Positions 7,218 through 63,770 of a stretch of 64,000 nucleotides of DNA are shown here, piece after piece. The notes beneath the pieces were generated by a model. That model was not told the DNA's origin and did not search any database. It was given only the letters and a program-made list of their open reading frames with translations. Position 1 is the first letter of the stretch. Each line of letters starts with the position of its first letter. Source of the stretch: a virus; UHGV virus genome UHGV-0298424; one strand, 5' to 3'. The position numbers were made by a program, and so were the translations under genes.

Positions 7218-8492
7218 TTAAATTGCAAAATAGTCTTCCACGATTTTATCGGTAGACTGGTAACTTACACTGCCTGCAGCAATCACGTAATTACGTTTCT
7301 CAGTGGTCAGTAGTGCCTGAATCGCATTTACGCCCGCGTAGGTGTAAAGTTTAAGTTCAGTCATCTCCGGCGTGATGTTCTTCGCTTTGTCCCACTTTGC
7401 ATCTAATCCTTTAAATAGCGTTAATATGCGAGTACCATACGTTTTGAAACTGACACCAGGTTCAACCCGAAGGTTAGCCATGAGGTTTTGGATAACGGTG
7501 GCTGCGATCTGAGTCCCTTGTCCCGGTTGCAGTTTATCCAGATAGTATTCCGTTGAATCCAGATTACCTGTCGCTGCCGCCTGAATCATCAGCTCGCCGT
7601 ACAGTACCTCTTTTGCTTGTGCGTCGGTAATCGCTTGAAGCATCGGCTCAATTTTAGCCGGTAAACCATAACTGTTCAGTTTGGTAGAGAGGCCATAAAT
7701 CAGCGCCGAAGAGGTATTAATGTCTAACGCGGAGAAACTGTTGCTGCCTTTAAAGCTGTTAATCAGGTTATCGATGGCTAAGAAGTCGTCTAAGTCTTTG
7801 TAGCTGTCGAAAGTATGTTGTACGTCATCAACGATCGAGGTGATTTGATAACGCATACTGTTGACTTCAGACATAAACCCGTTGACTTCTTGACTAACTT
7901 CCGAGGGGAGTTTAGCCAGTTGTCCAGCAATGTTCATCGTCCCTTCGAGACGTTTTTTCACCGAGTTAAAGTCAGTACCGATACCGGATAAAACGGAGTC
8001 GTTTAAGCTGCCGATACTATCCCACCCTTTACCTAACAGCTTCCCCATCCCACCTGGACTTAGGTAGTCTAGCGCTTTTAGGCCATCTTCATCCTTTTTC
8101 TTAAAGGGTTCAGAAACGTCACGCTTTTGTGGGTCGAGGACAGGAAGCGTTTCTTTGGTATTAGATGCAAAACCGGGAACCTTTTGTCCTGGCGACACCC
8201 CGGAGGCTGAACTCCCCGCAGTCTTAGTTCCCCCAACACTGGCGGTATCGCTACCGCCAAAAAGGTTACCAATTTTGCTGGTCAGCTCGTTGCCGCCGCT
8301 AATGAGTTTGTTGAAAGTTTCACCAGCGCGGTCTGATAGTCGGCTGACGCTATCGACCGTGTTCTTAATACCACGCTCCGCATTTTCCACTGTTGTTTGT
8401 ACGCGGTTTGTGGCGCTCTTTGCCGTATTAACGGAATTATCGATTGCCGACTGACCTTTATTTATCTGACTGGTTATTTGGTCGATTTTCAT
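7218..8492 (-). CDS. hypothetical protein with Gly/Ser/Thr-rich segment (possible virion protein)
   Basis: start at ATG 8492 with GGAGA SD; N-terminal helical region then low-complexity G/S/T stretch. Confidence 0.45.
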   Translation of the reverse strand: MKIDQITSQINKGQSAIDNSVNTAKSATNRVQTTVENAERGIKNTVDSVSRLSDRAGETFNKLISGGNELTSKIGNLFGGSDTASVGGTKTAGSSASGVSPGQKVPGFASNTKETLPVLDPQKRDVSEPFKKKDEDGLKALDYLSPGGMGKLLGKGWDSIGSLNDSVLSGIGTDFNSVKKRLEGTMNIAGQLAKLPSEVSQEVNGFMSEVNSMRYQITSIVDDVQHTFDSYKDLDDFLAIDNLINSFKGSNSFSALDINTSSALIYGLSTKLNSYGLPAKIEPMLQAITDAQAKEVLYGELMIQAAATGNLDSTEYYLDKLQPGQGTQIAATVIQNLMANLRVEPGVSFKTYGTRILTLFKGLDAKWDKAKNITPEMTELKLYTYAGVNAIQALLTTEKRNYVIAAGSVSYQSTDKIVEDYFAI

Positions 8493-55900: not shown

Positions 55901-58165
55901 CTTAAACATCAAAAATCGGCTTATTTCATTGAAGCCGAATATGATAAAAATACGACCTATGGTTATCCTGGATACGGTGGTTTTGGACCAACATCCCGCC
56001 GTGTTGAAAAAACAGCGAACGAATACGGCATATTGACAAATATACCGCTGGTTGTTACGCCAGAAATACCGAACGGCCTACTAGAAGGGGCTTATTTTAT
56101 CGGTGCCGAAAGTAAACCGTGTACAGTTGTTTACGGTACCACTACGGTGGGTAGTGATCGGTTGTCTATCGATGCGGCAGAATGGGCGAAGCTGACTAAT
56201 ATTGTTCAGTCCAGCCAGTTCTCCGGGGCATCTAACGGCAACGCCTATGAGCGGATTAGCGTAGCTAAGACCAAAAAGAACAACTACAGTTTGTCCTTTT
56301 GGGTGCTTGGTCAAACGATGTCTGGTGGTCCGCTTTGTATCGCGATAGTGAGTCTTATCTATAAAGACACTGACGGGGTAAATAAGTTTGCTTTTTACTT
56401 CTTTCAGGTAAAACCGACTATAACCAACGGGGTCATAAGGTTCGTTAGTTCGGAAGCGAGAATGATGACGTTCAGGGAAAAAGTGGCCAGTAACGCCATT
56501 AATCTCTCACCCACAGCTTTTAATGGTGAACTTAAACAACGCTCCGGTCAAGTTTTCCTTTATTCGCAAGACGGACAAAAGTTCAGATTCTCAATACATA
56601 ACCTGGTTGGTGGGAATCTTGTAGGATCAGAGATTTCTTTTGCTTTTGGGATAAACTTGACTAAAAAAGGCGAATGGTTTACCGGCGAAATTCATCGGGC
56701 GTGGGGCTATACGTATACGCTGAATAATACATCTGAAGTCTATATACCCGATCTCTCGGGCATCGCGCTATTGACTTGTAACTCGGAAGATTTAAACGAG
56801 TTGTATCTCGGCGGCGAACAGTATAGAATCTCTGATTTGTTTAACAAAAAATATACTGTTATCGATAAGATTATTATTGGCGGCGTACAAACACAGAGCG
56901 GTTGGAATTTCTATCTGACGGAGGAAACCGAGTTAAGTTTTGGAAATAAAAGATATACCGTTCCAAGATGGTCCGTTGATTTAAGCGATGAATTCCCGAC
57001 TAATCACGCTAACCAGACGTTCTACGTTTATGCTGAAGTGGTCGGTTCTACTGCCCAATACCGCATCGGTTTAGAGCAGTTAGCTGATACCTCGTCGAGA
57101 CTGTTTGTTGGGACAGTAACCACTGATTCGAACCGTATTACGGATATCAGTATCGATAAAGTAAAACGGTTAGGTCGTGTAAAAGAGCTGGAAAATCATG
57201 CCTCGATTGTTGATCAACACGATGTGGCGCAGGCATTCGACAGGAAAACTGGCCCACTATTAACGCTGGTTAATAAACCCGTTAAAGTCGTTACAGCATC
57301 TGCGAGCAAGGGTGCTGGGTATGTCGATGGTCAGAAATGGAATACGTTGTCCGGGATTACAACACGTTCCAGGTTGCCGGTACAGGAAACCTATTCAGGT
57401 TATAAAAGTATCAGCAGGGTGGCGTATGAGAACTGCGCTGACCAGTTCTGGCAGAAAGCGGTTGCTGCGAACGTTGCAGCGGCTACTGCTTCTGAGAACA
57501 AACAAGCAGCAACCGCGAACATGAAGTGGTTGGGCGCGTATACGAAACCGACTACTGGCGAGTATGCATATCTGGCATTGAGTCTGCGTGTTAAAGTACC
57601 TGGCGATCCTGGTACTGCTAATCGTAGACTGAAAATCAGGCTTGCGGCCCCGACAGGTATAACTCAAGTTCGTTACGGGCTAAATCAGTCTGGCGGTACG
57701 ATGACTGAACAGACAGTAACGCTAACTGCTAACAGTTACCTGGAAAAAGAACACGCGGGATTTAAGCCAGCCGCCGAAGTCCGCCTTCATGCTACGTTTG
57801 TCATTCCAAAAAATGAATACGATAGTTACCGGACCAAATTTGGTGCTGTTCAGCTGATTGACGTTGAGACGAACACTGTCATTAAACAGACAGATATCGA
57901 CACACCGTTTATCGTGTACACCGCCACAGAGCAAGCGGCACAATCTGGTTTGGTGTATAAAGCGGTTAAGAGTCAGTTTCGTCAACTCCCGGCTCAACCT
58001 GTCGTCATTGTAACTGATGGACAGACAGGGACTACACCACCGGTGAAAACCGCGTTTTCTGACGGGACATTAACGGTCTACGTGGCAACCACGTACGATG
58101 CGGTTAACCCAGCACAAACTCGCGATATCGATAAGCTCCAGTTCAATCTTATGTTTACATCTTAA
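52979..58165 (+). CDS. tail fibre protein (1728 aa)
   Basis: shared N-terminal domain (PPEGPFYRIGL...GLDYYLGYYF); LTLTKADFGIDKMNNTTPIAKPVT motif; very long ORF. Confidence 0.65.
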   Translation: MPREDAAQFNGTLSTATYPNRFNVVIPPEGPFYRIGLKLTVADDTAPNGRRTLIEGLDYYLGYYFKELAEAEQDQIYGGFMLLTATEIEYEILGVARQYRVPQSEIGKFLVRTDLKDPRNVDWSELMAYAPVIQPIDPPANLEEAILRDEVVKALNDIRKKIVQRSTELDAAFTEVTNLIYENGKKIFDEELYQHHLNPNAHQYTTNDVGALPVLGRAVDATKAFGLTIDQLATLMGSAGIEQSDVEQLMGEALGTVYGRWGTTNGNELTFKTPGGHIISIRGDKWLITSPQPLVIKADQDNNESGLAVEFSAGLNTLWVHSGSEQDVLAPVYNSVYLVTPEMVNMYLTSVTLLEANAYFKPSDTVKPYGTAKQSNPLTLNANIPTATESVYGVFSITNIATSVALGTAISQKAVTELKNRLDLYVDDDYTVNGKGFVKTGDNMVLTLTKADFGIDKMNNTTPIAKPVTKALANVLKNKSLKVHTHTTADLDNVPIGSATVDGILQLWDAIDTTNDKAVTSRQGWLFAKEIKKVSDKLNTLLPAWTTAGSKYTNNSILPILSMGNYEGYGKNMDALQMVIGVQQGKLYALISSKSALPGTEGIYYAVAGLKNDKSLGEIYKTTFRYKPKGLETNYPGVELKEITVTGTEAFIAKGSDDNYYLVKLNGSMDYTKHTDVRLVTFSEFVSETTWEFVPNMFMDRVVIADNGVYVLRTMLMADLKNNTLVDYIKDTPQPMFRVGLLRLNKTDRFEQVDLRSTRKIGKCADLVEPGAFDVDNPNTKRLAYFTAEGKALWTVNLQLTRGSSRWITPVVKDGHLLTVGVSGVCLGFSSTKGTTFGPWNGAYRLDLLTGEVGLETTNVFPIKIDTTGCYLKDGTKIELKWKWATRSSGYMADNRICVGDMVYSCCCSTEKQLAPSLHYQKLPEGVSYLDYVKLSVGYEGQSTFENRINPVVGSVWKPSMTFPLFFPGTNKVWLKHQKSAYFIEAEYDKNTTYGYPGYGGFGPTSRRVEKTANEYGILTNIPLVVTPEIPNGLLEGAYFIGAESKPCTVVYGTTTVGSDRLSIDAAEWAKLTNIVQSSQFSGASNGNAYERISVAKTKKNNYSLSFWVLGQTMSGGPLCIAIVSLIYKDTDGVNKFAFYFFQVKPTITNGVIRFVSSEARMMTFREKVASNAINLSPTAFNGELKQRSGQVFLYSQDGQKFRFSIHNLVGGNLVGSEISFAFGINLTKKGEWFTGEIHRAWGYTYTLNNTSEVYIPDLSGIALLTCNSEDLNELYLGGEQYRISDLFNKKYTVIDKIIIGGVQTQSGWNFYLTEETELSFGNKRYTVPRWSVDLSDEFPTNHANQTFYVYAEVVGSTAQYRIGLEQLADTSSRLFVGTVTTDSNRITDISIDKVKRLGRVKELENHASIVDQHDVAQAFDRKTGPLLTLVNKPVKVVTASASKGAGYVDGQKWNTLSGITTRSRLPVQETYSGYKSISRVAYENCADQFWQKAVAANVAAATASENKQAATANMKWLGAYTKPTTGEYAYLALSLRVKVPGDPGTANRRLKIRLAAPTGITQVRYGLNQSGGTMTEQTVTLTANSYLEKEHAGFKPAAEVRLHATFVIPKNEYDSYRTKFGAVQLIDVETNTVIKQTDIDTPFIVYTATEQAAQSGLVYKAVKSQFRQLPAQPVVIVTDGQTGTTPPVKTAFSDGTLTVYVATTYDAVNPAQTRDIDKLQFNLMFTS

Positions 58166-58205
58166 CGCCACGAGACAAGGACGTCTCGGATTAAGGAGAG
58201 TGGCC

Positions 58206-59405
58206 ATGGCCTCCATTGTATACCAATACCCTTTAGATTTAACGGGAACCCTAACCTCTAACGCCGTGGAGCGTCAGATTACGTTAGGTACAGGCAAAGT
58301 TAACCGTGCGTTTGCTTTCCCTGATGGTCCGTTTTATGCCGATACGTTCCGCTTGCGGGTTGCCAATCGACCTGGAGCGACATATGAGCGTGGAACGGAC
58401 TATGAACTGATTTTTGCACACCCGGCTTATGAGAAATTGACGAAGAACCGGGAAGTGGTAATGGCGGTTGTTGTAACGAACACCGCGATTCCGACCGATA
58501 TCACGGTATCGGCGCAAGTAGTTGGTGGTCCGCAGTCTGCAAATGTGACCGCGATTGAGCAAGCGATTGCCGAGTTGAAACTCGATAATCGAACTGTTGG
58601 CTTTAAAGACTTGCGAAATGTGCCGGACACGTTTCCTTCAGCACCAACGTATAAAGACGTCGGTGATATTTACGGCTTCGAATATATCATTACAGTGCTC
58701 GCTGGCATTAAAGATGCGATAACTGCGGGTGATGCTGTACAGCTTGAGAACATCAAAGCGATTCTCGAAAGCCTGAAAAACGATTTCCTGGACGCGCTGA
58801 ACGCGCACATTAACTCCACTGGTAACGTCCACCATCTGGATATTCATCAGGTTAACGGGTTAACAGAAACGGAAATCCGCGCTTTAATTCGCAGTGTTCA
58901 GACAGCCATTGATGCAACGATTGCCGATATCAATGCATTGAAGAAAGCGGACGTAGCGTTAGGAAAACGTATTGATGCCGTTGTCAAATCTCTGGAAGCG
59001 TGGAACGACCAACTTAACGTCGTTGCACAAAACTACCAGAAAATGGCACTGGCAATGGCGAACCTAAACTCGTTAGTGTTACAGTTACAGAAAAATATCA
59101 ACGATCTGAGCACCAAACTCAACCAAGCGATTCAACGTATTGCTGCGTTAGAGCAACGGGGTAATGAGACTGATCAGAAAATTGATAAACTGCAACAAAA
59201 CCTGGATGCGCTTAAACAACAGGTTGCGAATAACACGAACGCTATTAGTCAGGCGAATCAGAACCTACAAAACCACATTGCGGCGGATAATCCACACACA
59301 GGTTACCTGCACAAGAAATACGGTGGCGTGGTTCAGGCTTCAGTACACGTTAACGCTAACTTGACGTCCCGTGATGACGTTCAGGCAGAAGCAGGTACGA
59401 AATAA
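58206..59405 (+). CDS. coiled-coil fibre protein (fibritin-like)
   Basis: ATG 58206 after AAGGAGAG; N-terminal domain FPDGPFYADTFRL...GTDYELIF homologous to the three giant fibres; long heptad-repeat region. Confidence 0.6.
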   Translation: MASIVYQYPLDLTGTLTSNAVERQITLGTGKVNRAFAFPDGPFYADTFRLRVANRPGATYERGTDYELIFAHPAYEKLTKNREVVMAVVVTNTAIPTDITVSAQVVGGPQSANVTAIEQAIAELKLDNRTVGFKDLRNVPDTFPSAPTYKDVGDIYGFEYIITVLAGIKDAITAGDAVQLENIKAILESLKNDFLDALNAHINSTGNVHHLDIHQVNGLTETEIRALIRSVQTAIDATIADINALKKADVALGKRIDAVVKSLEAWNDQLNVVAQNYQKMALAMANLNSLVLQLQKNINDLSTKLNQAIQRIAALEQRGNETDQKIDKLQQNLDALKQQVANNTNAISQANQNLQNHIAADNPHTGYLHKKYGGVVQASVHVNANLTSRDDVQAEAGTK

Positions 59406-59460: not shown

Positions 59461-59472
59461 TAAGGATACGTG

Positions 59473-59865
59473 ATGGCGATCAGTGTTAAAAATGTGCGTG
59501 ACCGAATCACCAACGTAGAGAACCAAATGGCAACTGGCCCACGTGTTGATCCGCAAGTTGCGTCGAAAGCACATAACGCTGCTGATTCATTTTCAGGTTG
59601 GACACCCGGTCGATTAGATTGTGGAGGTAGCTGTAGCTGGACATGCTCAAACGGTTGTACGCATGGTTGTACGAGTTGTTCAGGTACATGTACATCGGTG
59701 TGCGTAGGAAGCTGTTCCTCTGCGTGTGGTAATCAATGCAGTGGTTGTAGCGGAACGTGTTCGGGTGGTTGTTCAGGATGTAGTGGGACTTGTAGTGGGG
59801 GATGTGCTGGACGTTGTTCCTCGGGGTGTAGCGGTTCTTGTGCAGGTGGTTGTTCTAACCCATAA
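59473..59865 (+). CDS. Cys-rich precursor-like protein A
   Basis: about 130 aa; leader-like N-terminus then DCGGSCSWTCS and about 30 Cys in C-S/T-G-x-C repeats; AAGGA SD. Confidence 0.6.
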   Translation: MAISVKNVRDRITNVENQMATGPRVDPQVASKAHNAADSFSGWTPGRLDCGGSCSWTCSNGCTHGCTSCSGTCTSVCVGSCSSACGNQCSGCSGTCSGGCSGCSGTCSGGCAGRCSSGCSGSCAGGCSNP

Positions 59866-59884: not shown

Positions 59885-60799
59885 ATGGAAGAACTTACTA
59901 GACCGACGGTATCCGATAAGCTCTACAGTAATCCGAGAACGTTAAACGTGATTACAACATCCAAATGTAATCTGGACTGTAGCTTCTGCGGCGGAGCCTA
60001 TTACATGCATAGAGAGGATACAACCGCAGAAGTACAAAAGGAAAGTATTATCGAGGCGCTGGAAAATAACCCGACTATCACAAATATCCAATGGTCAGGG
60101 GGCGAACCATTACTTGCCACGCGTAAAATTGATACCCTTATAGAAGAGATAAGGGAGAAGTATCCTCGTTGCGAACATTACCTGTATACCAACGGTTTAA
60201 AAATGCGTAAATCGCATCTACCGTTGTTAAAGGGTTTTGATAGTATCTTTTTTAGCATGGATGGATTCAAAGAATCAGAGCGTCCGTTCATGCGGATTAT
60301 CGAAGAAAAACAATACGAGGTTTTGGAGACAATTTACGAATTGAAAAATATTCGTACTTGGGCGGTTTTGACACGCGAGCGTATTGGGGATAAACGTTGG
60401 TACGAAGATATAATTGCGTTACATAACCACATTTACCATTATGGTTTTTGTGAGATGTCGCTGGTTTTGGACAAAAACATGCCAAAACCGTTATCTCCCG
60501 ATCACGTTATGAACTTTATTTACGGGTATTTTAGAATTCAGGAGAATATAGAAAGACTGAATTCGTCCAATCGAAGCGAATGTGCGTTTACGCTAAATGC
60601 GTTATTTGATGAACCCTGTAACACATGTAGTCGTTGTTTTCGCATTGAGTCTGACGGTGCCCAGAACCAAGTAAAGAACGTTGAAATCGTAACGCAACAC
60701 GGCTGTAGTGACTTGGCCAGAAAGGTTGGATTAGATGCTTACGACTATATACGTCGTGTGGTAGGGGCTAAGAATAGAGTCTCAGAAAAACTACGATAA
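59885..60799 (+). CDS. radical SAM enzyme 1 (SPASM/twitch-like)
   Basis: 304 aa; CNLDCSFC (Cx3Cx2C) at residues 28-35, SGGEPLL SAM motif, C-terminal Cys cluster EC...CNTCSRC...GC. Confidence 0.7.
   Translation: MEELTRPTVSDKLYSNPRTLNVITTSKCNLDCSFCGGAYYMHREDTTAEVQKESIIEALENNPTITNIQWSGGEPLLATRKIDTLIEEIREKYPRCEHYLYTNGLKMRKSHLPLLKGFDSIFFSMDGFKESERPFMRIIEEKQYEVLETIYELKNIRTWAVLTRERIGDKRWYEDIIALHNHIYHYGFCEMSLVLDKNMPKPLSPDHVMNFIYGYFRIQENIERLNSSNRSECAFTLNALFDEPCNTCSRCFRIESDGAQNQVKNVEIVTQHGCSDLARKVGLDAYDYIRRVVGAKNRVSEKLR
59957..60556 (+). repeat. three identical nucleotide blocks shared with radical SAM 2
   Basis: 54 nt (59957-60010 = 62919-62972), 41 nt (60191-60231 = 63153-63193) and about 84 nt (60473-60556 = 63436-63519) identical inside otherwise diverged paralogs. 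Confidence 0.6.
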
Positions 60800-60857: not shown

Positions 60858-61256
60858 ATGGCGATTGGTTTATCTTCTTTAAAGGCCCGGCTAGATAACA
60901 TAGACTCTACTGCATTAAAAAATACAGGTGCGGTGCAGAACTATATTCGTGGTAAAGCCACTAATAATAGCGATCTGTTTGGAGGACAGCCGAGAAATCA
61001 CTATGACTGTGGAGGTAGCTGTAGCTGGACGTGCTCAAGTTGTTCGGGCGGCTGTACCGGCAACGCCTCCGGCGGCTGCGGTTCTTCCTGTTCAGCGAAC
61101 TGTGTTTCAGGATGTAGTACAGGTTGCACAGGTTGTAGCAGTACCTGCTCAGGAGGGTGCACAGGTAATTGCTCGGGCGGTTGTTCAAGTAGTTGCACCG
61201 GAACATGTTCAGGTTCATGTCGAGGCGGATGTCAGCAATCGTGTACTGGAAGATAA
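60858..61256 (+). CDS. Cys-rich precursor-like protein B
   Basis: 132 aa; same architecture as A with 23-nt identical stretch at the DCGGSCSWTCS codons. Confidence 0.6.
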   Translation: MAIGLSSLKARLDNIDSTALKNTGAVQNYIRGKATNNSDLFGGQPRNHYDCGGSCSWTCSSCSGGCTGNASGGCGSSCSANCVSGCSTGCTGCSSTCSGGCTGNCSGGCSSSCTGTCSGSCRGGCQQSCTGR

Positions 61257-61259
61257 GAA

Positions 61260-61463
61260 ATGATAAGTCTTAAAAACATACGCGACAGATTAGTAACGGC
61301 GGAGGGATATATCACCACCGCTAATGCAAACAACTATATTGCAAACCAAGGAACGGTTTCCTCAACCAACAATCTCGCAGGATTACCTTTAAGTCATTAT
61401 AATTGTAATGGCGGATGTAGTTGGTCGTGCAGCGGTAGCTGTAGTAAGGGGGCGGGGGGGTAA
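61260..61463 (+). CDS. Cys-rich precursor-like protein C (short core, ends in G7 run)
   Basis: 67 aa; starts 3 nt after the B stop; leader ISLKNIRDRL..., core NCNGGCSWSCSGSCSKGAGG; stop directly after the poly-G tract. Confidence 0.5.
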   Translation: MISLKNIRDRLVTAEGYITTANANNYIANQGTVSSTNNLAGLPLSHYNCNGGCSWSCSGSCSKGAGG

Positions 61464-61924
61464 GTAAGCCCTCTAGCGGTGGTTCTACGCCAACCCCTTC
61501 AAGACCAACCTACGACAACAAAGCCGTTGTTTATGTTGAGTCTAAGCTACACGCTAAAGATACTGTTCGTATCAATTTCTCTACTGGGGCTGTCTTTATT
61601 CAATGCGTAACGTTAACCGGTAGAGAGAAACCGATAAGGGTCTTTAAATCGTTACTGTCTGGAAAGTCCTACGCCTACCCTCAAGTTGCAATGGGTAATG
61701 GTATCACTGTTAATTTTACAGACGCGGCTAGTTTTAAGATAGACTCTATCGGTAATGCATCTTCTGCTTCTATCTCATTAGAAGTATTAAGTAATTCCGG
61801 CGGAAGCATGGCGATTAAGCAGCAACCGAGTAAATCAAACGGCTTTACTGCAGAATTTGAAGTTACCGGCAGGCAATGGCGTGGCGGGTTCTATACCTTG
61901 AACGTCAGATTGACCGTAAAATAA
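61448..61924 (+). CDS. possible C-terminal extension of protein C via -1 frameshift
   Basis: -1 frame open for about 158 codons from inside the G-run to 61924 with no ATG/GTG/TTG before 61691. Confidence 0.3.
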   Translation, partial: GGGGVSKPSSGGSTPTPSRPTYDNKAVVYVESKLHAKDTVRINFSTGAVFIQCVTLTGREKPIRVFKSLLSGKSYAYPQVAMGNGITVNFTDAASFKIDSIGNASSASISLEVLSNSGGSMAIKQQPSKSNGFTAEFEVTGRQWRGGFYTLNVRLTVK

Positions 61925-61936
61925 TTGGAGTAATCA

Positions 61937-62824
61937 ATGAAAAACGATTTGCATTTAGCCTATAAAACAATTTTCAACCACCCACTTCATATTTCTTCCC
62001 CCGATTCAATACGCGCTCATTTGGAAGATAAAGTTCGTTTGTTAACCCAGTTACCTGGCGAATGGCCCAAAGTGCGTGGTCGTTTTTTTACCGATCGCAA
62101 TAACTATTCAGTAGAAAACACTTTTAAAATACGCGATCTGACAGCAGAAAGCGTAGTGGTGTTTACCGGTGATTCAGATTTACGCGGTAAATTGGTTGAC
62201 GGTAAATATTTCTTTAGTGACGGTATTCTGAATAATTCTGTAGATTTGGAATTGTTCTTTACGCCATTTAAAGAGTTGAATGCGAAGCCTGTAGCACGAC
62301 GTTGGTGGTCTCCAGACTATCTTGGTTCATTCCCGTACTTTTATGCCCTGGTTCCTGTAGAAACAAAAAACTATGTTGATACTGAACCGTATATTGAAAT
62401 AGAAGGTTACGAGGAACTTGGCATCAACTGTTTAGCAGATCTGATGGCGTACAGTTACAAATTTATGTGGGATCGTGAACGTTCAGTATGGGTTGCCCTT
62501 ACAGATGAACATGAAATCACAAAACGTATTCGTAAACCATGGATGCAGCATTTAATTCAAACACGTATTGGTGAACATCCGTCATCGGAAGCAGATTTAG
62601 CGAAACTTGTTAGTTTCTTAATGACGAAAGTCACGTTAACTGATGAAGAAAAAGCGGCAGTGTCGGCGGTATTGGAACGTAACGTAACGTTAGCGGATCT
62701 AGAACGTTTAAACGTGCGTTATAAAGACCTTAATCGTATTATTGAGGCTTACAATTCACCGTTTGTATTAAAACCTGGAGTTAACGCTTACGACGATCCT
62801 TTGTTATCCATTGGCTATATTTAA
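61937..62824 (+). CDS. hypothetical protein in the radical SAM cluster
   Basis: 295-aa ORF with GGAG SD between the precursors and radical SAM 2. Confidence 0.5.
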   Translation: MKNDLHLAYKTIFNHPLHISSPDSIRAHLEDKVRLLTQLPGEWPKVRGRFFTDRNNYSVENTFKIRDLTAESVVVFTGDSDLRGKLVDGKYFFSDGILNNSVDLELFFTPFKELNAKPVARRWWSPDYLGSFPYFYALVPVETKNYVDTEPYIEIEGYEELGINCLADLMAYSYKFMWDRERSVWVALTDEHEITKRIRKPWMQHLIQTRIGEHPSSEADLAKLVSFLMTKVTLTDEEKAAVSAVLERNVTLADLERLNVRYKDLNRIIEAYNSPFVLKPGVNAYDDPLLSIGYI

Positions 62825-62831
62825 AAAATAG

Positions 62832-63770
62832 ATGGACTCACCTGCAATGACAACCTACGTAGAGCCAAGGTTATCGAATCGTTTATACAATAAACCCACC
62901 GTATTGTCCGTAGTTGCTACATCCAAATGTAATCTGGACTGTAGCTTCTGCGGCGGAGCCTATTACATGCATCGTGAAGATTCTCCGCGAGAGTTTCAAC
63001 GTGAACGAATTTTGAAAGCGTTGGCGTCTAACCCAACCATTACTGAAATTCAGTGGACTGGCGGTGAACCGCTACTGGCAACTCGAAAGATTGAGGCGTT
63101 TGTCGACGAATTAAAAACGATCCGTCCTGAACTCAAACACCAGATGTTCACGAACGGTTTAAAAATGCGTAAATCGCATCTACCGTTGTTAAAACAATTC
63201 GATGCTATATATGTTAGCATCGATGGGTTTAATCTTTCTGAACGGCCTTTTAAGCGCTTTATTGATGATAATTGTCATGAAGCGTTAGAAGTAATTTACA
63301 GCTTGAATAATGTTAACACTTGGGCTGTTGTTACGAGGGAGAATTTATCCAATAAAAGATGGCATGAAGATATCATTCAATTACATACTGCTATCTATCA
63401 TTACGGTTTTCGTTCCATGTCCTTATTACTAGATAAAAACATGCCAAAACCGTTATCTCCCGATCACGTTATGAACTTTATTTACGGGTATTTTAGAATT
63501 CAGGAGAATATAGAAAGATTAAACGTTCTAAATTCTAGAGACTGCGGTTTTATTGTAAACAGATTCTTCGATCATGCTTGTAATGTCTGTAGCGAAAGTC
63601 TCAGGATAGACGCGGACGGGGAAGAAAACCAACTTAAAAATGTACCAATAACTACAAAAGCAGGGTGTAACCAACTAGCCTCCTCAATAGGTGTAGAAGC
63701 TTACGAGTACATTCGTCGTGTAGTGATGGCAGAGCGTAATAGAGGGGCGGAAAATGAGTCAAGAAAATAG
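62832..63770 (+). CDS. radical SAM enzyme 2 (paralog of enzyme 1)
   Basis: 312 aa; CNLDCSFCGGAYYMHRED, TGGEPLL, C-terminal Cys cluster; three nucleotide blocks identical to enzyme 1. Confidence 0.7.
   Translation: MDSPAMTTYVEPRLSNRLYNKPTVLSVVATSKCNLDCSFCGGAYYMHREDSPREFQRERILKALASNPTITEIQWTGGEPLLATRKIEAFVDELKTIRPELKHQMFTNGLKMRKSHLPLLKQFDAIYVSIDGFNLSERPFKRFIDDNCHEALEVIYSLNNVNTWAVVTRENLSNKRWHEDIIQLHTAIYHYGFRSMSLLLDKNMPKPLSPDHVMNFIYGYFRIQENIERLNVLNSRDCGFIVNRFFDHACNVCSESLRIDADGEENQLKNVPITTKAGCNQLASSIGVEAYEYIRRVVMAERNRGAENESRK

What the first reader, a model, noticed from the sequence alone, without database searches (positions are those of the whole stretch)
61440..61924. Precursor C ends at a G7 run; the -1 frame then stays open for about 158 codons
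Gene C stops at TAA 61461-61463 immediately after AAGGGGGCGGGGGGG. From inside the G-run the -1 frame is open to 61924 and has no ATG/GTG/TTG start for about 80 codons before the track ORF 61691..61924, which is unlikely by chance (a few percent). A -1 slip at the poly-G, by programmed frameshift, transcriptional slippage or a homopolymer sequencing error, would fuse the Cys-rich segment to a beta-rich domain (VSKPSSGGSTPTPSRPTYDNK...FYTLNVRLTVK). That would make C a modified-peptide module attached to a folded, possibly receptor-binding, domain.
Basis: seen in the sequence. Interest (0 to 1): 0.7.

Follow-up and report, generated by a model that had tools for sequence, protein, structure and literature searches.

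The report
Poly-G switch splitting a phage gene
The short Cys-rich gene C and the start-less open frame behind it are two halves of one jumbo-phage gene, joined or separated by a run of G whose length differs between otherwise identical phage genomes, so a C-terminal domain can be switched on and off.

Summary
C (61260-61463) ends at AAG GGG GCG GGG GGG TAA, and the -1 frame is open from 61448 to 61921 (158 codons) with no start codon for 81 codons.

The downstream frame is real coding sequence:
- dN/dS is 0.09-0.19.
- The other two frames carry 10 and 16 stops.

In-frame fusions occur in public assemblies. One is a 222-aa protein built from exactly the window's C and the window's domain, joined by three Gly.

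Fifteen loci carry this domain family. Three of them have flanks 100% identical to the window. Their tracts hold 6, 8, 9, 10 or 11 G after the Ala codon, and the G run is the only indel.
- One locus is in frame.
- Six are in the window's phase.
- Eight are in the other out-of-frame phase.

G-TAA-G-TAA follows the tract, so both out-of-frame phases stop within two codons. They leave a 67-70-aa C like the stand-alone C of SPN3US and JN03.

The best reading is a hypermutable poly-G switch for a C-terminal domain, and the window holds an OFF allele. A classical programmed -1 frameshift is unlikely, because relatives need +1, -1 or no shift. RNA-level or ribosomal slippage cannot be excluded. The domain's function is unknown. 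The closest precedent is poly-G phase variation in Campylobacter phage receptor-binding proteins.

The parts
61260..61463 (+). Gene C as it reads in this allele: a 67-aa short product, made of an N-terminal region, four Cys spaced by three residues, and KGAGG before the stop
   Evidence: It matches phrog_6085 at E 9.5e-25, the same family as A and B. A stand-alone 68-aa homologue is present in JN03.
61404..61442 (+). Cys-Xaa3 repeat block C49-NGG-C53-SWS-C57-SGS-C61
   Evidence: Read directly. Paralogues A and B reach the cut-off of TIGR04114 (Cxxx-repeat radical SAM target). C itself has no NCBIfam hit.
61448..61460 (+). G-rich tract G5-C-G7. The homopolymer at 61454-61460 holds six G after the Ala codon GCG. 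It encodes the poly-Gly hinge and sets the reading phase.
   Evidence: Tract lengths are 6, 8, 9, 10 and 11 in relatives, three of which have 100% identical flanks. The tract is the only indel in alignment A2.
61461..61467 (+). Overlapping stops TAA-G-TAA, which end both non-fusion phases within two codons
   Evidence: The P0006-type cassette has the equivalent TAA-A-TAA.
61460..61507 (+). Pro/Ser/Thr/Gly-rich linker VSKPSSGGSTPTPSRP, read in the -1 frame
61508..61924 (+). C-terminal domain of about 138 aa plus its stop codon. It has no start of its own until 61691.
   Evidence: dN/dS is 0.09-0.19 overall and 0.13-0.35 in the start-less first 77 codons. Homologues are P0001-P0003. Secondary structure is all strands, but from a low-confidence model.
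59470..59865 (+). Cys-rich paralogue A (context)
   Evidence: phrog_6085; TIGR04114 at its cut-off.
59885..60799 (+). Radical SAM enzyme (context)
   Evidence: PF04055 at E 8e-14; phrog_1802.
60858..61256 (+). Cys-rich paralogue B (context)
   Evidence: phrog_6085; TIGR04114 at 22.3 bits against a cut-off of 20.
61937..62824 (+). Conserved 295-aa gene. In SPN3US and JN03 it follows C directly, so it marks the downstream edge of the domain cassette.
   Evidence: phrog_8030. In JN03 the stop of C lies 22 nt before this gene.
62832..63770 (+). Second radical SAM enzyme (context)
   Evidence: PF04055 at E 4.9e-13.

Best explanation
C and the start-less ORF behind it are one gene. A hypermutable poly-G tract lies at the boundary between two protein modules and encodes the poly-Gly hinge between them. 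The N-terminal module is a Cys-Xaa3-repeat segment, paralogous to the radical-SAM-associated proteins A and B. The C-terminal module is a domain of about 140 aa that appears to be all-beta.

The number of G after the Ala codon sets the reading phase.
- With 3k+1 G (7, 10 or 13), a 221-223-aa fusion is made.
- With any other number, translation stops within two codons at G-TAA-G-TAA. That leaves a 67-70-aa C equivalent to the stand-alone C of SPN3US-type phages.

The window carries an OFF allele with six G, which needs one more G or two fewer.

Shown:
- The tract is polymorphic on identical flanks.
- All three phases occur in nature, including an exact ON version of the window's sequence.
- The domain is under purifying selection.
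- Both OFF phases terminate immediately.

Inferred:
- The length changes arise by slipped-strand mispairing during phage DNA replication, and they are frequent and reversible.
- The switch diversifies a virion (fibre-like) component.
- The Cys block is modified by the neighbouring radical SAM enzymes.
For: 1. In-frame alleles exist.
- P0069 is the window's C, three Gly and the window's domain, residue for residue.
- P0034, P0035, P0041, P0042 and P0044 are 221-222-aa fusions with diverged copies of the same domain.
- L063 has 10 G and a called 222-aa gene on a 225-kb contig.

2. The tract is hypervariable.
- L057, L059 and L064 match the window at 188/188 nt upstream and 464/464 nt downstream, yet carry 9, 8 and 8 G against the window's 6.
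- L058 has the same flanks and GGGAGGGGG.
- L004, L035 and L003 have 8 G and L002 has 11.
- The tract is the only indel in alignment A2.

3. The same design recurs with two other C-terminal cassettes.
- P0006 type: 10 G, in frame, followed by TAAATAAT.
- P0004 type: an interrupted GGC GGA GGG GGA GGG, in frame.
- Both types also have out-of-frame members (P0059, P0064, P0065).

4. The domain is maintained by selection. dN/dS is 0.09-0.19, and 0.13-0.35 in the start-less half. The ORF is intact in every OFF allele examined, even at 60% aa identity with saturated dS.

5. GGG makes up only 20% of Gly codons in the window's long ORFs, yet the hinge is an uninterrupted GGG run in most lineages, including diverged ones; interrupted tracts also occur (L008, L058, L040).

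6. Assemblies break at or next to the tract.
- Logan contigs L005-L007 end inside the G run.
- A 224.8-kb contig ends in the tract (L011).
- A Shigella contig ends inside C, 8 nt before the tract (L067).

7. No terminator or promoter lies between C and the domain.
Against: - No read-level data are available, so heterogeneity within a population and reversibility are not shown. Homopolymer miscalls could add to the apparent variation.
- ON alleles are a small minority: 1 of 15 loci at the DNA level, and about 6 contigs against more than 100 among the cluster members listed. This is unexpected for a neutral three-phase switch. It leaves room for expression from OFF alleles by RNA-polymerase or ribosome slippage.
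- Interrupted, presumably locked, OFF alleles are common (P0008 'KGAGGR*' on 43 contigs; L058). L040 has lost most of the domain. The extension is therefore dispensable.
- The window's six-G allele was not found on any other complete contig.
- Nothing found here shows what the domain does.
Confidence: 0.7

Rival explanations
1. Recoding at the RNA or ribosome level is the main route. The gene is kept out of frame, and a set fraction of ribosomes or transcripts slips on the G run. On the ribosome this would be G GGG GGG followed by a stop, a 'shifty stop'. For transcripts it would be phage RNA polymerase stuttering. The phage would then make mostly short C plus a minor C-domain fusion, as lambda does with G/GT and T7 with 10A/10B.
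For: - In the window, the zero-frame heptamer G GGG GGG is a formal X XXY YYZ site, with TAA directly behind it.
- Out-of-frame alleles predominate: 14 of 15 loci, and most of the cluster members listed.
- The domain is nevertheless under purifying selection.
- Short C is evidently functional on its own, because SPN3US and JN03 encode only that form.
- An SD-like AAGGGGG or AAGGAG lies just upstream of the tract.
Against: - The frame relation is not conserved. The window and the 9-G alleles need -1, the 8-G and 11-G alleles need +1, and in-frame alleles exist for all three cassette types. A dedicated ribosomal frameshift site would keep one geometry.
- No stimulatory structure sits at the usual 5-9 nt spacing. 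The only fold starts 10 nt after the stop, has z = -2.3, and its core hairpin lies about 50 nt downstream.
- The SD-like GGAGCG is also present in JN03, which has no tract.
- From general knowledge, transcriptional slippage in bacteria is documented mainly for A/T runs.
- P0004-type phages carry an interrupted, in-frame hinge on about 30 contigs, so an all-fusion state is viable.
Confidence: 0.15
2. The window's G7 is a homopolymer sequencing or assembly error. The real phage would carry another length, possibly an in-frame one, and nothing biological would happen at this site in this genome.
For: - The window's six-G allele was not found on any other complete contig. Only Logan contigs that end inside the run match the 67-aa product.
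- Phages with identical flanks have 8 or 9 G.
- Poly-G tracts are known trouble spots, and assemblies break there.
Against: - The large genes of the window read intact. For example, the 1728-aa ORF has the same length as in relatives.
- Even if the count is wrong, the split-gene architecture and the length polymorphism rest on more than 15 independent assemblies made with several assemblers.
- Six G is in the same phase as the common nine-G allele and differs from it by exactly one Gly codon.
Confidence: 0.1
3. The downstream frame is either a separate gene with its own start or a decaying remnant with no present function.
For: - In 8-G and 11-G alleles the domain is in frame with an ATG or GTG inside C's Cys block, and gene callers report 164-173-aa ORFs.
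- L040 shows that the domain can decay.
- SPN3US and JN03 lack the domain entirely.
Against: - That ATG is simply the Asn-Gly codon pair AAT GGN of C. It is absent where Asn is AAC (L035, L040, L011), and no SD precedes it.
- In the window's phase, no start exists for 81 codons.
- The would-be N-terminus is an out-of-frame reading of the Cys block.
- dN/dS of 0.09-0.19, including the start-less half, argues against a remnant.
- In-frame fusions exist.
Confidence: 0.05

Closest known systems
Hypermutable poly-G tracts giving phase-variable receptor-binding proteins in Campylobacter Fletchervirus phages (Sorensen et al. 2021, Cell Rep 35:109214; seen here only as cited in PMC10579305, PMC10877375 and PMC12823448)
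   Same: A run of G lies inside a phage gene, and its length sets the reading frame. ON and OFF variants therefore coexist among closely related phages.
   Different: - The host here is enterobacterial (Salmonella, E. coli, Shigella assemblies), and the phage is an SPN3US-like jumbo phage.
- The tract sits exactly at a domain boundary and doubles as the poly-Gly hinge.
- Both OFF phases stop within two codons and leave a short product that is conserved on its own elsewhere. The switch therefore adds or removes a C-terminal domain and does not silence the whole protein.
- Neither switching nor receptor binding has been demonstrated here.
Bacterial contingency loci (homopolymer phase variation in Campylobacter, Neisseria and Haemophilus; general knowledge, reviewed in PMC4235727)
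   Same: The proposed mechanism is slipped-strand mispairing at a G run of 8 or more. The marks are a length polymorphism on identical flanks, and a tract that is uninterrupted in most lineages although GGG is a minority codon.
   Different: The locus is in a virus. The rate, the reversibility and the selective agent are all unknown.
Programmed frameshift C-terminal extensions in phages (lambda G/GT, T7 10A/10B; general knowledge)
   Same: Two products share an N-terminus, and the longer one carries an extra C-terminal part.
   Different: Those sites have a fixed slippery sequence and a conserved frame relation. Here the frame relation differs between relatives, and in-frame alleles occur.
Cys-Xaa-Xaa-Xaa repeat radical SAM target proteins (NCBIfam TIGR04114, TIGR04117)
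   Same: A and B reach the TIGR04114 cut-off. C has four Cys at the same spacing. Radical SAM genes flank the three genes.
   Different: C itself gives no hit. The proteins are phage-encoded and lie in a virion-structural gene block. No modification has been shown, and the chemistry is unknown even for the bacterial family.
Tail-fibre tropism switches that exchange C-terminal parts (Mu Gin and P1 Cin inversion, Bordetella phage DGR; cited in PMC10579305)
   Same: They vary the C-terminal end of a fibre-like protein. Here at least three unrelated or barely related cassettes occupy the same position behind C.
   Different: The mechanism is homopolymer length, not inversion or retro-mutagenesis. 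The fibre role is inferred only from gene neighbourhood.

Membership tests
Phase-variable homopolymer (contingency) locus | A homopolymer of about 7 or more bases lies inside a reading frame | tested here: met
   The window has G7. Counting the G of GCG, relatives have G9 to G12.
Phase-variable homopolymer (contingency) locus | Tract length differs between genomes whose flanks are otherwise identical | tested here: met
   The window has 6 G, L059 and L064 have 8, L057 has 9, and L058 has 9 positions with one A. All share 188/188 nt upstream and 464/464 nt downstream.
Phase-variable homopolymer (contingency) locus | All reading phases occur, including an ON phase that gives the full-length product | tested here: met
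   Among 15 loci, 6 are in phase 0, 8 in phase 2 and 1 in phase 1 (L063). ON proteins are P0069, P0034, P0035, P0041, P0042 and P0044.
Phase-variable homopolymer (contingency) locus | The switched coding sequence is kept intact by selection | tested here: met
   dN/dS is 0.09-0.19, there are no stops in five OFF alleles, and the other frames carry 4-18 stops.
Phase-variable homopolymer (contingency) locus | Switching within one population is frequent and reversible | not testable with these tools
   This needs raw reads or plaque lineages. The only hints are contigs that break at or next to the tract and ON alleles that mostly sit on short contigs.
Programmed -1 ribosomal frameshift | A slippery heptamer X XXY YYZ lies in the zero frame | tested here: met
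   G GGG GGG at 61454-61460 in the frame of C, followed by TAA. It is an automatic consequence of the G run.
Programmed -1 ribosomal frameshift | The frame relation and the site are conserved among relatives | tested here: not met
   Relatives need +1 (8 or 11 G), -1 (6 or 9 G) or no shift (10 G).
Programmed -1 ribosomal frameshift | A stimulatory stem-loop or pseudoknot lies 5-9 nt downstream | tested here: inconclusive
   The fold of 61461-61560 has z = -2.3. Pairing starts 10 nt after the stop, and the core hairpin lies about 50 nt downstream. Covariation was not tested.
Programmed transcriptional slippage | mRNA is heterogeneous in tract length relative to the DNA | not testable with these tools
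   This needs RNA-seq or cDNA amplicons.
Cxxx-repeat radical SAM target (TIGR04114/TIGR04117) | A match to the family model at its cut-off | tested here: not met
   C has no NCBIfam hit. A scores 20.1 and B 22.3 bits against a cut-off of 20. C shares phrog_6085 with A and B.
Cxxx-repeat radical SAM target (TIGR04114/TIGR04117) | Cys residues spaced by three, with an adjacent radical SAM gene | tested here: met
   Cys are at 49, 53, 57 and 61. Radical SAM genes lie at 59885-60799 and 62832-63770.
Cxxx-repeat radical SAM target (TIGR04114/TIGR04117) | The Cys block is modified post-translationally | not testable with these tools
   This needs mass spectrometry.
Phage receptor-binding or tail-fibre protein | Homology or fold similarity to a known fibre or receptor-binding domain | tested here: not met
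   Pfam, PHROGs and NCBIfam gave no hit for the domain. PDB sequences gave nothing, tblastn against phage records gave nothing, and the exhaustive HMMER search found only the phage's own clade plus two weak hits. The AlphaFold models reached pLDDT 44 and 32, too poor for a fold search.
Phage receptor-binding or tail-fibre protein | The gene lies in the virion structural module | tested here: met
   The upstream 435-aa protein matches phrog_2163 (virion structural protein, E 5.5e-104). Three ORFs of 1394-1728 aa precede it. The JN03 and SPN3US neighbours are annotated as virion structural proteins.
Phage receptor-binding or tail-fibre protein | Presence in the virion and binding to the host surface | not testable with these tools
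   This needs virion proteomics searched against a database that includes A, B and C, plus adsorption assays.

The most novel reading that the evidence does not exclude
The out-of-frame state may be the designed state. The phage would keep the tract mostly in one of the two OFF phases and rely on slippage of its own RNA polymerase or of the ribosome on the G run next to the stop. That would set a low, fixed ratio of C-domain fusion to short C in a Cys-crosslinked virion fibre. DNA-level length changes would then tune the ratio and would not act as a plain on/off switch. If this phage is nucleus-forming like its SPN3US relatives, host mismatch repair could not reach its DNA, which would make such tracts intrinsically hypermutable.
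Probability: 0.15. Interest if true: 0.8.

Novelty: new variant of a known kind. Interest (0 to 1): 0.62.

Why it matters
Poly-G phase variation of phage host-recognition proteins is known to me only from Campylobacter phages. This locus would extend it to a widespread but undeposited jumbo phage, about 225 kb, found in Salmonella, E. coli and Shigella assemblies and in metagenomes.

The layout is also different. The tract is the hinge between two modules, and both OFF phases still give a product that is conserved on its own. What is toggled is an exchangeable C-terminal cassette, of which at least three kinds occur.

The locus also gives a practical handle on the unannotated Cys-Xaa3 / radical SAM gene set of SPN3US-like phages, whose function is unknown. 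Locked-ON and locked-OFF hinge mutants are simple to design.

Two practical consequences follow. Gene callers and assemblers mishandle this locus, producing split ORFs, wrong-frame ORFs and contig breaks. Host-range phenotypes of such phages may be heterogeneous within a single stock.

Tried and rejected
- Phage-record searches for the domain failed. tblastn found no match. megablast found only an 81% match over 187 nt, inside a radical SAM gene of JN03.
- PLSDB plasmids and complete E. coli genomes gave no match.
- IMG/VR searched with the domain gave no relatives.
- The junction DNA pattern was scanned in three collections and gave 46 hits. Only L011, L035 and L040 were real loci; the rest were chance matches.
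- Pfam, PHROGs and NCBIfam gave nothing for the domain or for the P0004 and P0006 cassettes.
- PDB sequence searches gave nothing.
- The exhaustive HMMER search found only the phage's own clade, plus two weak hits (E 3e-4) to a repeat 'QQPSxxNxFTA' in proteins of about 550 aa with no Pfam domain assignment.
- AlphaFold gave pLDDT 44 for the domain and 32 for P0006. No fold search was run, because it would have been meaningless.
- Profile comparison of the three cassette types showed only a short shared motif (P-S-x-x-N-G-aromatic) at 2% probability. Homology between cassettes is therefore unproven.
- A classical -1 PRF was rejected because the frame relation varies.
- Independent initiation was rejected because the internal ATG is not conserved and has no SD.
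- Termination-reinitiation was rejected because no start codon lies near the stops.
- An internal promoter or terminator was not found.
Their DNA was not seen. The in-frame state was confirmed at the DNA level only for L063, L009 and L008.
- The paper by Sorensen et al. 2021 is not held and is cited second-hand.
Full report
**1. The observation**

Gene C is an ATG-started ORF at 61260-61463 (67 aa). It ends ...TGT AGT AAG GGG GCG GGG GGG TAA.
- The G-rich stretch is G5 (61448-61452), C (61453) and G7 (61454-61460). TAA follows at 61461-61463.
- The -1 frame has TAG TAA at 61442-61447 and is then open from 61448 to 61921, which is 158 sense codons. It stops at 61922-61924.
- The first ATG/GTG/TTG in that frame is at 61691, so 81 codons have no start.
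- The other two frames of the same 462 nt contain 10 and 16 stops. An open frame of this length is therefore not a chance event.
- A G7 run alone is not remarkable. About one G run of 7 or more is expected per 64 kb, and this is the only G or C run of 7 or more in the window.

**2. Genomic setting**

The window comes from a jumbo phage related to SPN3US and JN03 (Seoulvirus) and to Erwinia phages such as phiEaH2. It has no close relative in the phage collection: identity is 72-75% over 8% of a 25-kb query.

The local gene order is:
- a virion structural protein at 58098-59405 (phrog_2163)
- Cys-rich A at 59470-59865
- a radical SAM enzyme at 59885-60799
- Cys-rich B at 60858-61256
- C, followed by the start-less frame
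- a conserved 295-aa gene at 61937-62824
- a second radical SAM enzyme at 62832-63770

A, B and C all belong to phrog_6085, a family of unknown function. A and B just reach the cut-off of NCBIfam TIGR04114, the Cys-Xaa3 repeat radical SAM target family. C does not reach it, but it has four Cys at that spacing (49, 53, 57, 61).

In JN03, C is a stand-alone 68-aa gene (...CSRGAGNR*). Its stop lies 22 nt before the 295-aa gene, and there is no long G run and no downstream domain. In SPN3US the sequence matching C abuts the 295-aa gene in the same way. Relative to these phages, the 460 nt behind C in the window are an inserted cassette.

**3. The downstream frame is a real coding sequence**

A protein search with the hypothetical fusion found three clusters that carry the same domain at 95, 91 and 60% identity (P0001-P0003).

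Codon alignments of the window with four related loci (L002, L003, L004, L035) gave these results:
- dN/dS is 0.09-0.19 for the pairs measured over the whole domain (window, L002, L003, L004).
- dN/dS is 0.13-0.35 in the first 77 codons, which have no start in the window.
- dS is saturated against L003.
- No related locus has a stop in this frame.

The sequence begins with a Pro/Ser/Thr/Gly-rich linker (VSKPSSGGSTPTPSRP). About 138 residues follow that a low-confidence model predicts as all strands.

**4. C and the domain are one gene**

In-frame fusions exist in public assemblies.
- An exact look-up of the window's C (through KGA), three Gly and the window's domain found that very 222-aa protein (P0069).
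- Five more fusions of 221-222 aa carry diverged copies of the same domain (P0034, P0035, P0041, P0042, P0044).
- L063 is a 225-kb contig that encodes the window's exact 295-aa protein. It carries a called 222-aa gene.
- Two other, unrelated or barely related, C-terminal cassettes are fused in frame to the same C module: P0004 (226 aa) and P0006 (210 aa).

**5. The tract is hypervariable**

I counted G after the Ala codon (GCN) and before TAAGTAAGCC.

| Locus | G after the Ala codon |
|---|---|
| window | 6 |
| L003, L004, L035, L059, L064, L065, L066 | 8 |
| L057, L060, L061, L062 | 9 |
| L058 | 9 positions, with one A (GGGAGGGGG) |
| L063 | 10 |
| L002 | 11 |

- A fusion needs 3k+1 G. One of the 15 loci is therefore in frame, six are in the window's phase, and eight are in the other phase.
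- L057, L058, L059 and L064 are identical to the window at all 188 nt upstream and 464 nt downstream that were compared. They carry three other tract alleles.
- In a five-way alignment, the G run is the only indel.
- The listed cluster members give the same picture at the protein level:
  - C variants are KGAGGG* (38 contigs), KGAGGGK* (37) and KGAGGR* (43).
  - Domain ORFs of 164-173 aa correspond to one OFF phase.
  - Leftover ORFs of 77, 96 or 129 aa correspond to the other OFF phase.
  - Six fusion proteins occur on one contig each.
- GGG is only 20% of Gly codons in the window's long ORFs. An uninterrupted GGG hinge, which most lineages here keep (interrupted tracts: L008, L058, L040), is therefore unlikely to be neutral.
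- Several assemblies break at or next to the tract:
  - Three Logan contigs end inside the G run.
  - A 224.8-kb contig ends in the tract (L011).
  - A Shigella flexneri contig ends inside C, 8 nt before the tract (L067). P0010 and P0011 are the two partial proteins on 153-kb and 72-kb contigs.
  - These breaks fit mixed tract lengths within a sample. They also fit poor sequencing through poly-G.

**6. What the OFF phases do**

The conserved sequence after the tract is G-TAA-G-TAA-G. In the P0006 type it is G-TAA-A-TAA-T.
- One OFF phase reads GGG TAA.
- The other reads GGT AAG TAA.
- Both stop within two codons and give a C of 67-70 aa. That is the size and ending of the stand-alone C of JN03.
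- The tract therefore does not silence a protein. It decides whether a C-terminal domain is appended to a module that is evidently functional alone.

**7. Mechanism**

The evidence directly shows four things:
- a DNA length polymorphism on identical backgrounds
- all three phases present in nature
- selection on the switched domain
- clean termination in both OFF phases

The simplest account is slipped-strand mispairing during phage DNA replication, which would make this a phase-variable (contingency) tract. The window holds an OFF allele that needs one more G.

A dedicated -1 ribosomal frameshift is unlikely.
- The heptamer G GGG GGG plus the adjacent stop is present in the window.
- However, relatives would need +1, -1 or no shift.
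- The only predicted fold downstream is modest (z = -2.3) and badly placed.
- The SD-like GGAGCG upstream is also present in JN03, which has no tract.

Independent initiation is also unlikely.
- The ATG that gene callers use in 8-G alleles is the Asn-Gly codon pair of C.
- It is missing where Asn is AAC, and it has no SD.
- No promoter or terminator separates the two parts.

Slippage of the RNA polymerase or the ribosome on the run could still contribute. ON alleles are rare: 1 of 15 loci, and roughly 4% of the contigs listed. Yet the domain is maintained. Either ON subpopulations are always present and matter, or OFF alleles are leaky. Sequence alone cannot separate these.

Interrupted tracts are presumably less mutable, and they occur in both states. 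L008 (GGC GGA GGG GGA GGG) is ON. L058 and P0008 are OFF. L040 combines an interrupted OFF tract with an internal deletion of about 105 codons. The extension can therefore be lost, as in SPN3US.

**8. Function of the parts**

- The role of the Cys block as a radical SAM substrate is inferred from gene neighbourhood and from the borderline TIGR04114 hits of A and B.
- The virion or fibre role is inferred from the structural-gene neighbourhood.
- The domain has no detectable relatives outside this phage clade in Pfam, PHROGs, NCBIfam, PDB sequences or the phage records.
- An exhaustive HMMER search added only two weak hits (E 3e-4) to a four-fold repeat in proteins of about 550 aa with no Pfam domain assignment.
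- Both structure predictions failed.
- 'Receptor-binding' therefore remains a guess. Its only support is that at least three different cassettes occupy the same position, which is typical of host-recognition modules.

**9. Comparison with what is known**

The closest precedent is the use of hypermutable poly-G tracts by Campylobacter phages for phase-variable receptor-binding proteins (Sorensen et al. 2021). I saw it only as cited in PMC10579305, PMC10877375 and PMC12823448, because the paper itself is not held.

This locus differs from that precedent in several ways:
- the host group and the phage type
- the tract's position at a module boundary, where it encodes the hinge
- OFF products that remain functional-looking
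- the Cys-Xaa3 / radical SAM context

No paper in the library links SPN3US-type radical SAM genes to Cys-rich proteins. I rate the locus a new variant of a known kind.

**10. Verdict**

Its central idea, that a slip at the poly-G fuses C to a folded domain, is right. The most likely level of the slip is DNA, giving a phase-variable tract, and not a programmed -1 frameshift. The receptor-binding and modification claims are untested. Whether the window's own count of six G is exact cannot be checked without reads, and the conclusion does not depend on it.

Noticed in passing
L001 9067-10096 (JN03); L056 4153-4488 (SPN3US): In both reference genomes the only CDS annotated between the virion structural gene and the 295-aa gene is one 111-aa ORF (JN03 QNI20864.1, SPN3US gp100). 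In JN03 it was read here as an alternative-frame ORF lying across Cys-rich gene B. The Cys-rich genes A, B and C (phrog_6085) are not annotated in either record. In related contigs, gene callers likewise call an 86-aa wrong-frame ORF over B.
   Followed up: partly
whole window; L057-L066: This phage type of about 225 kb has no close relative in the phage collection, PLSDB or complete E. coli genomes. Its 295-aa protein is nevertheless indexed in 128 blocks of public assemblies, 39 of them with contigs of 0.2-1 Mb. Its proteins carry NCBI names from Salmonella (Chester, Dublin, Enteritidis, Braenderup, Agona, Weltevreden), E. coli and Shigella flexneri isolate assemblies. The phage seems to travel with bacterial isolates, which suggests a carrier state.
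   Followed up: partly
L005-L007 ends; L011 end; L067 end: Independent assemblies break at or next to the poly-G tract. One is a 224.8-kb contig whose end falls in the tract. Another is a Shigella assembly split into 153-kb and 72-kb contigs; its 153-kb contig ends inside C, 8 nt before the tract.
   Followed up: partly
window 59885-60799: The window type has an extra radical SAM gene between A and B. JN03 lacks it, and the gene spacing in L002, L008 and L009 leaves no room for it. It is a paralogue of the gene at 62832-63770.
   Followed up: no
L040 (IMGVR_UViG_3300045988_095954), reverse strand about 7870-8050: This is a decayed version of the locus. The tract is interrupted (GGGGGAAGG) and out of frame, and about 105 codons of the domain are deleted. 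A 47-codon remnant is left: VNKPSGGST joined to AITQQSSKSNGF...LTVN.
   Followed up: yes
window 61510-61533: The stretch CTACGAnAACAAAGCCGTTGTTTA (encoding YDNKAVVY) is nearly invariant at the nucleotide level, even against L003, where synonymous sites are otherwise saturated. It contains the short inverted repeat ACAAC/GTTGT. Whether a nucleic-acid element overlaps the coding sequence was not tested.
   Followed up: no
P0072, P0073: Two proteins of about 550 aa that begin with a hydrophobic N-terminal stretch carry four repeats. The repeat motif ...V.QQPS..N.FTA.I.I.D...G.D.Y.L..DW weakly matches the C-terminal third of the window's domain (E 3e-4). No Pfam family covers them.
   Followed up: partly
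window 59470: the ORF listing starts gene A at a GTG, giving MMAISVK. The ATG one codon later (59473) matches the start of the JN03 homologue (MAISIK) and is the more likely start.
   Followed up: no
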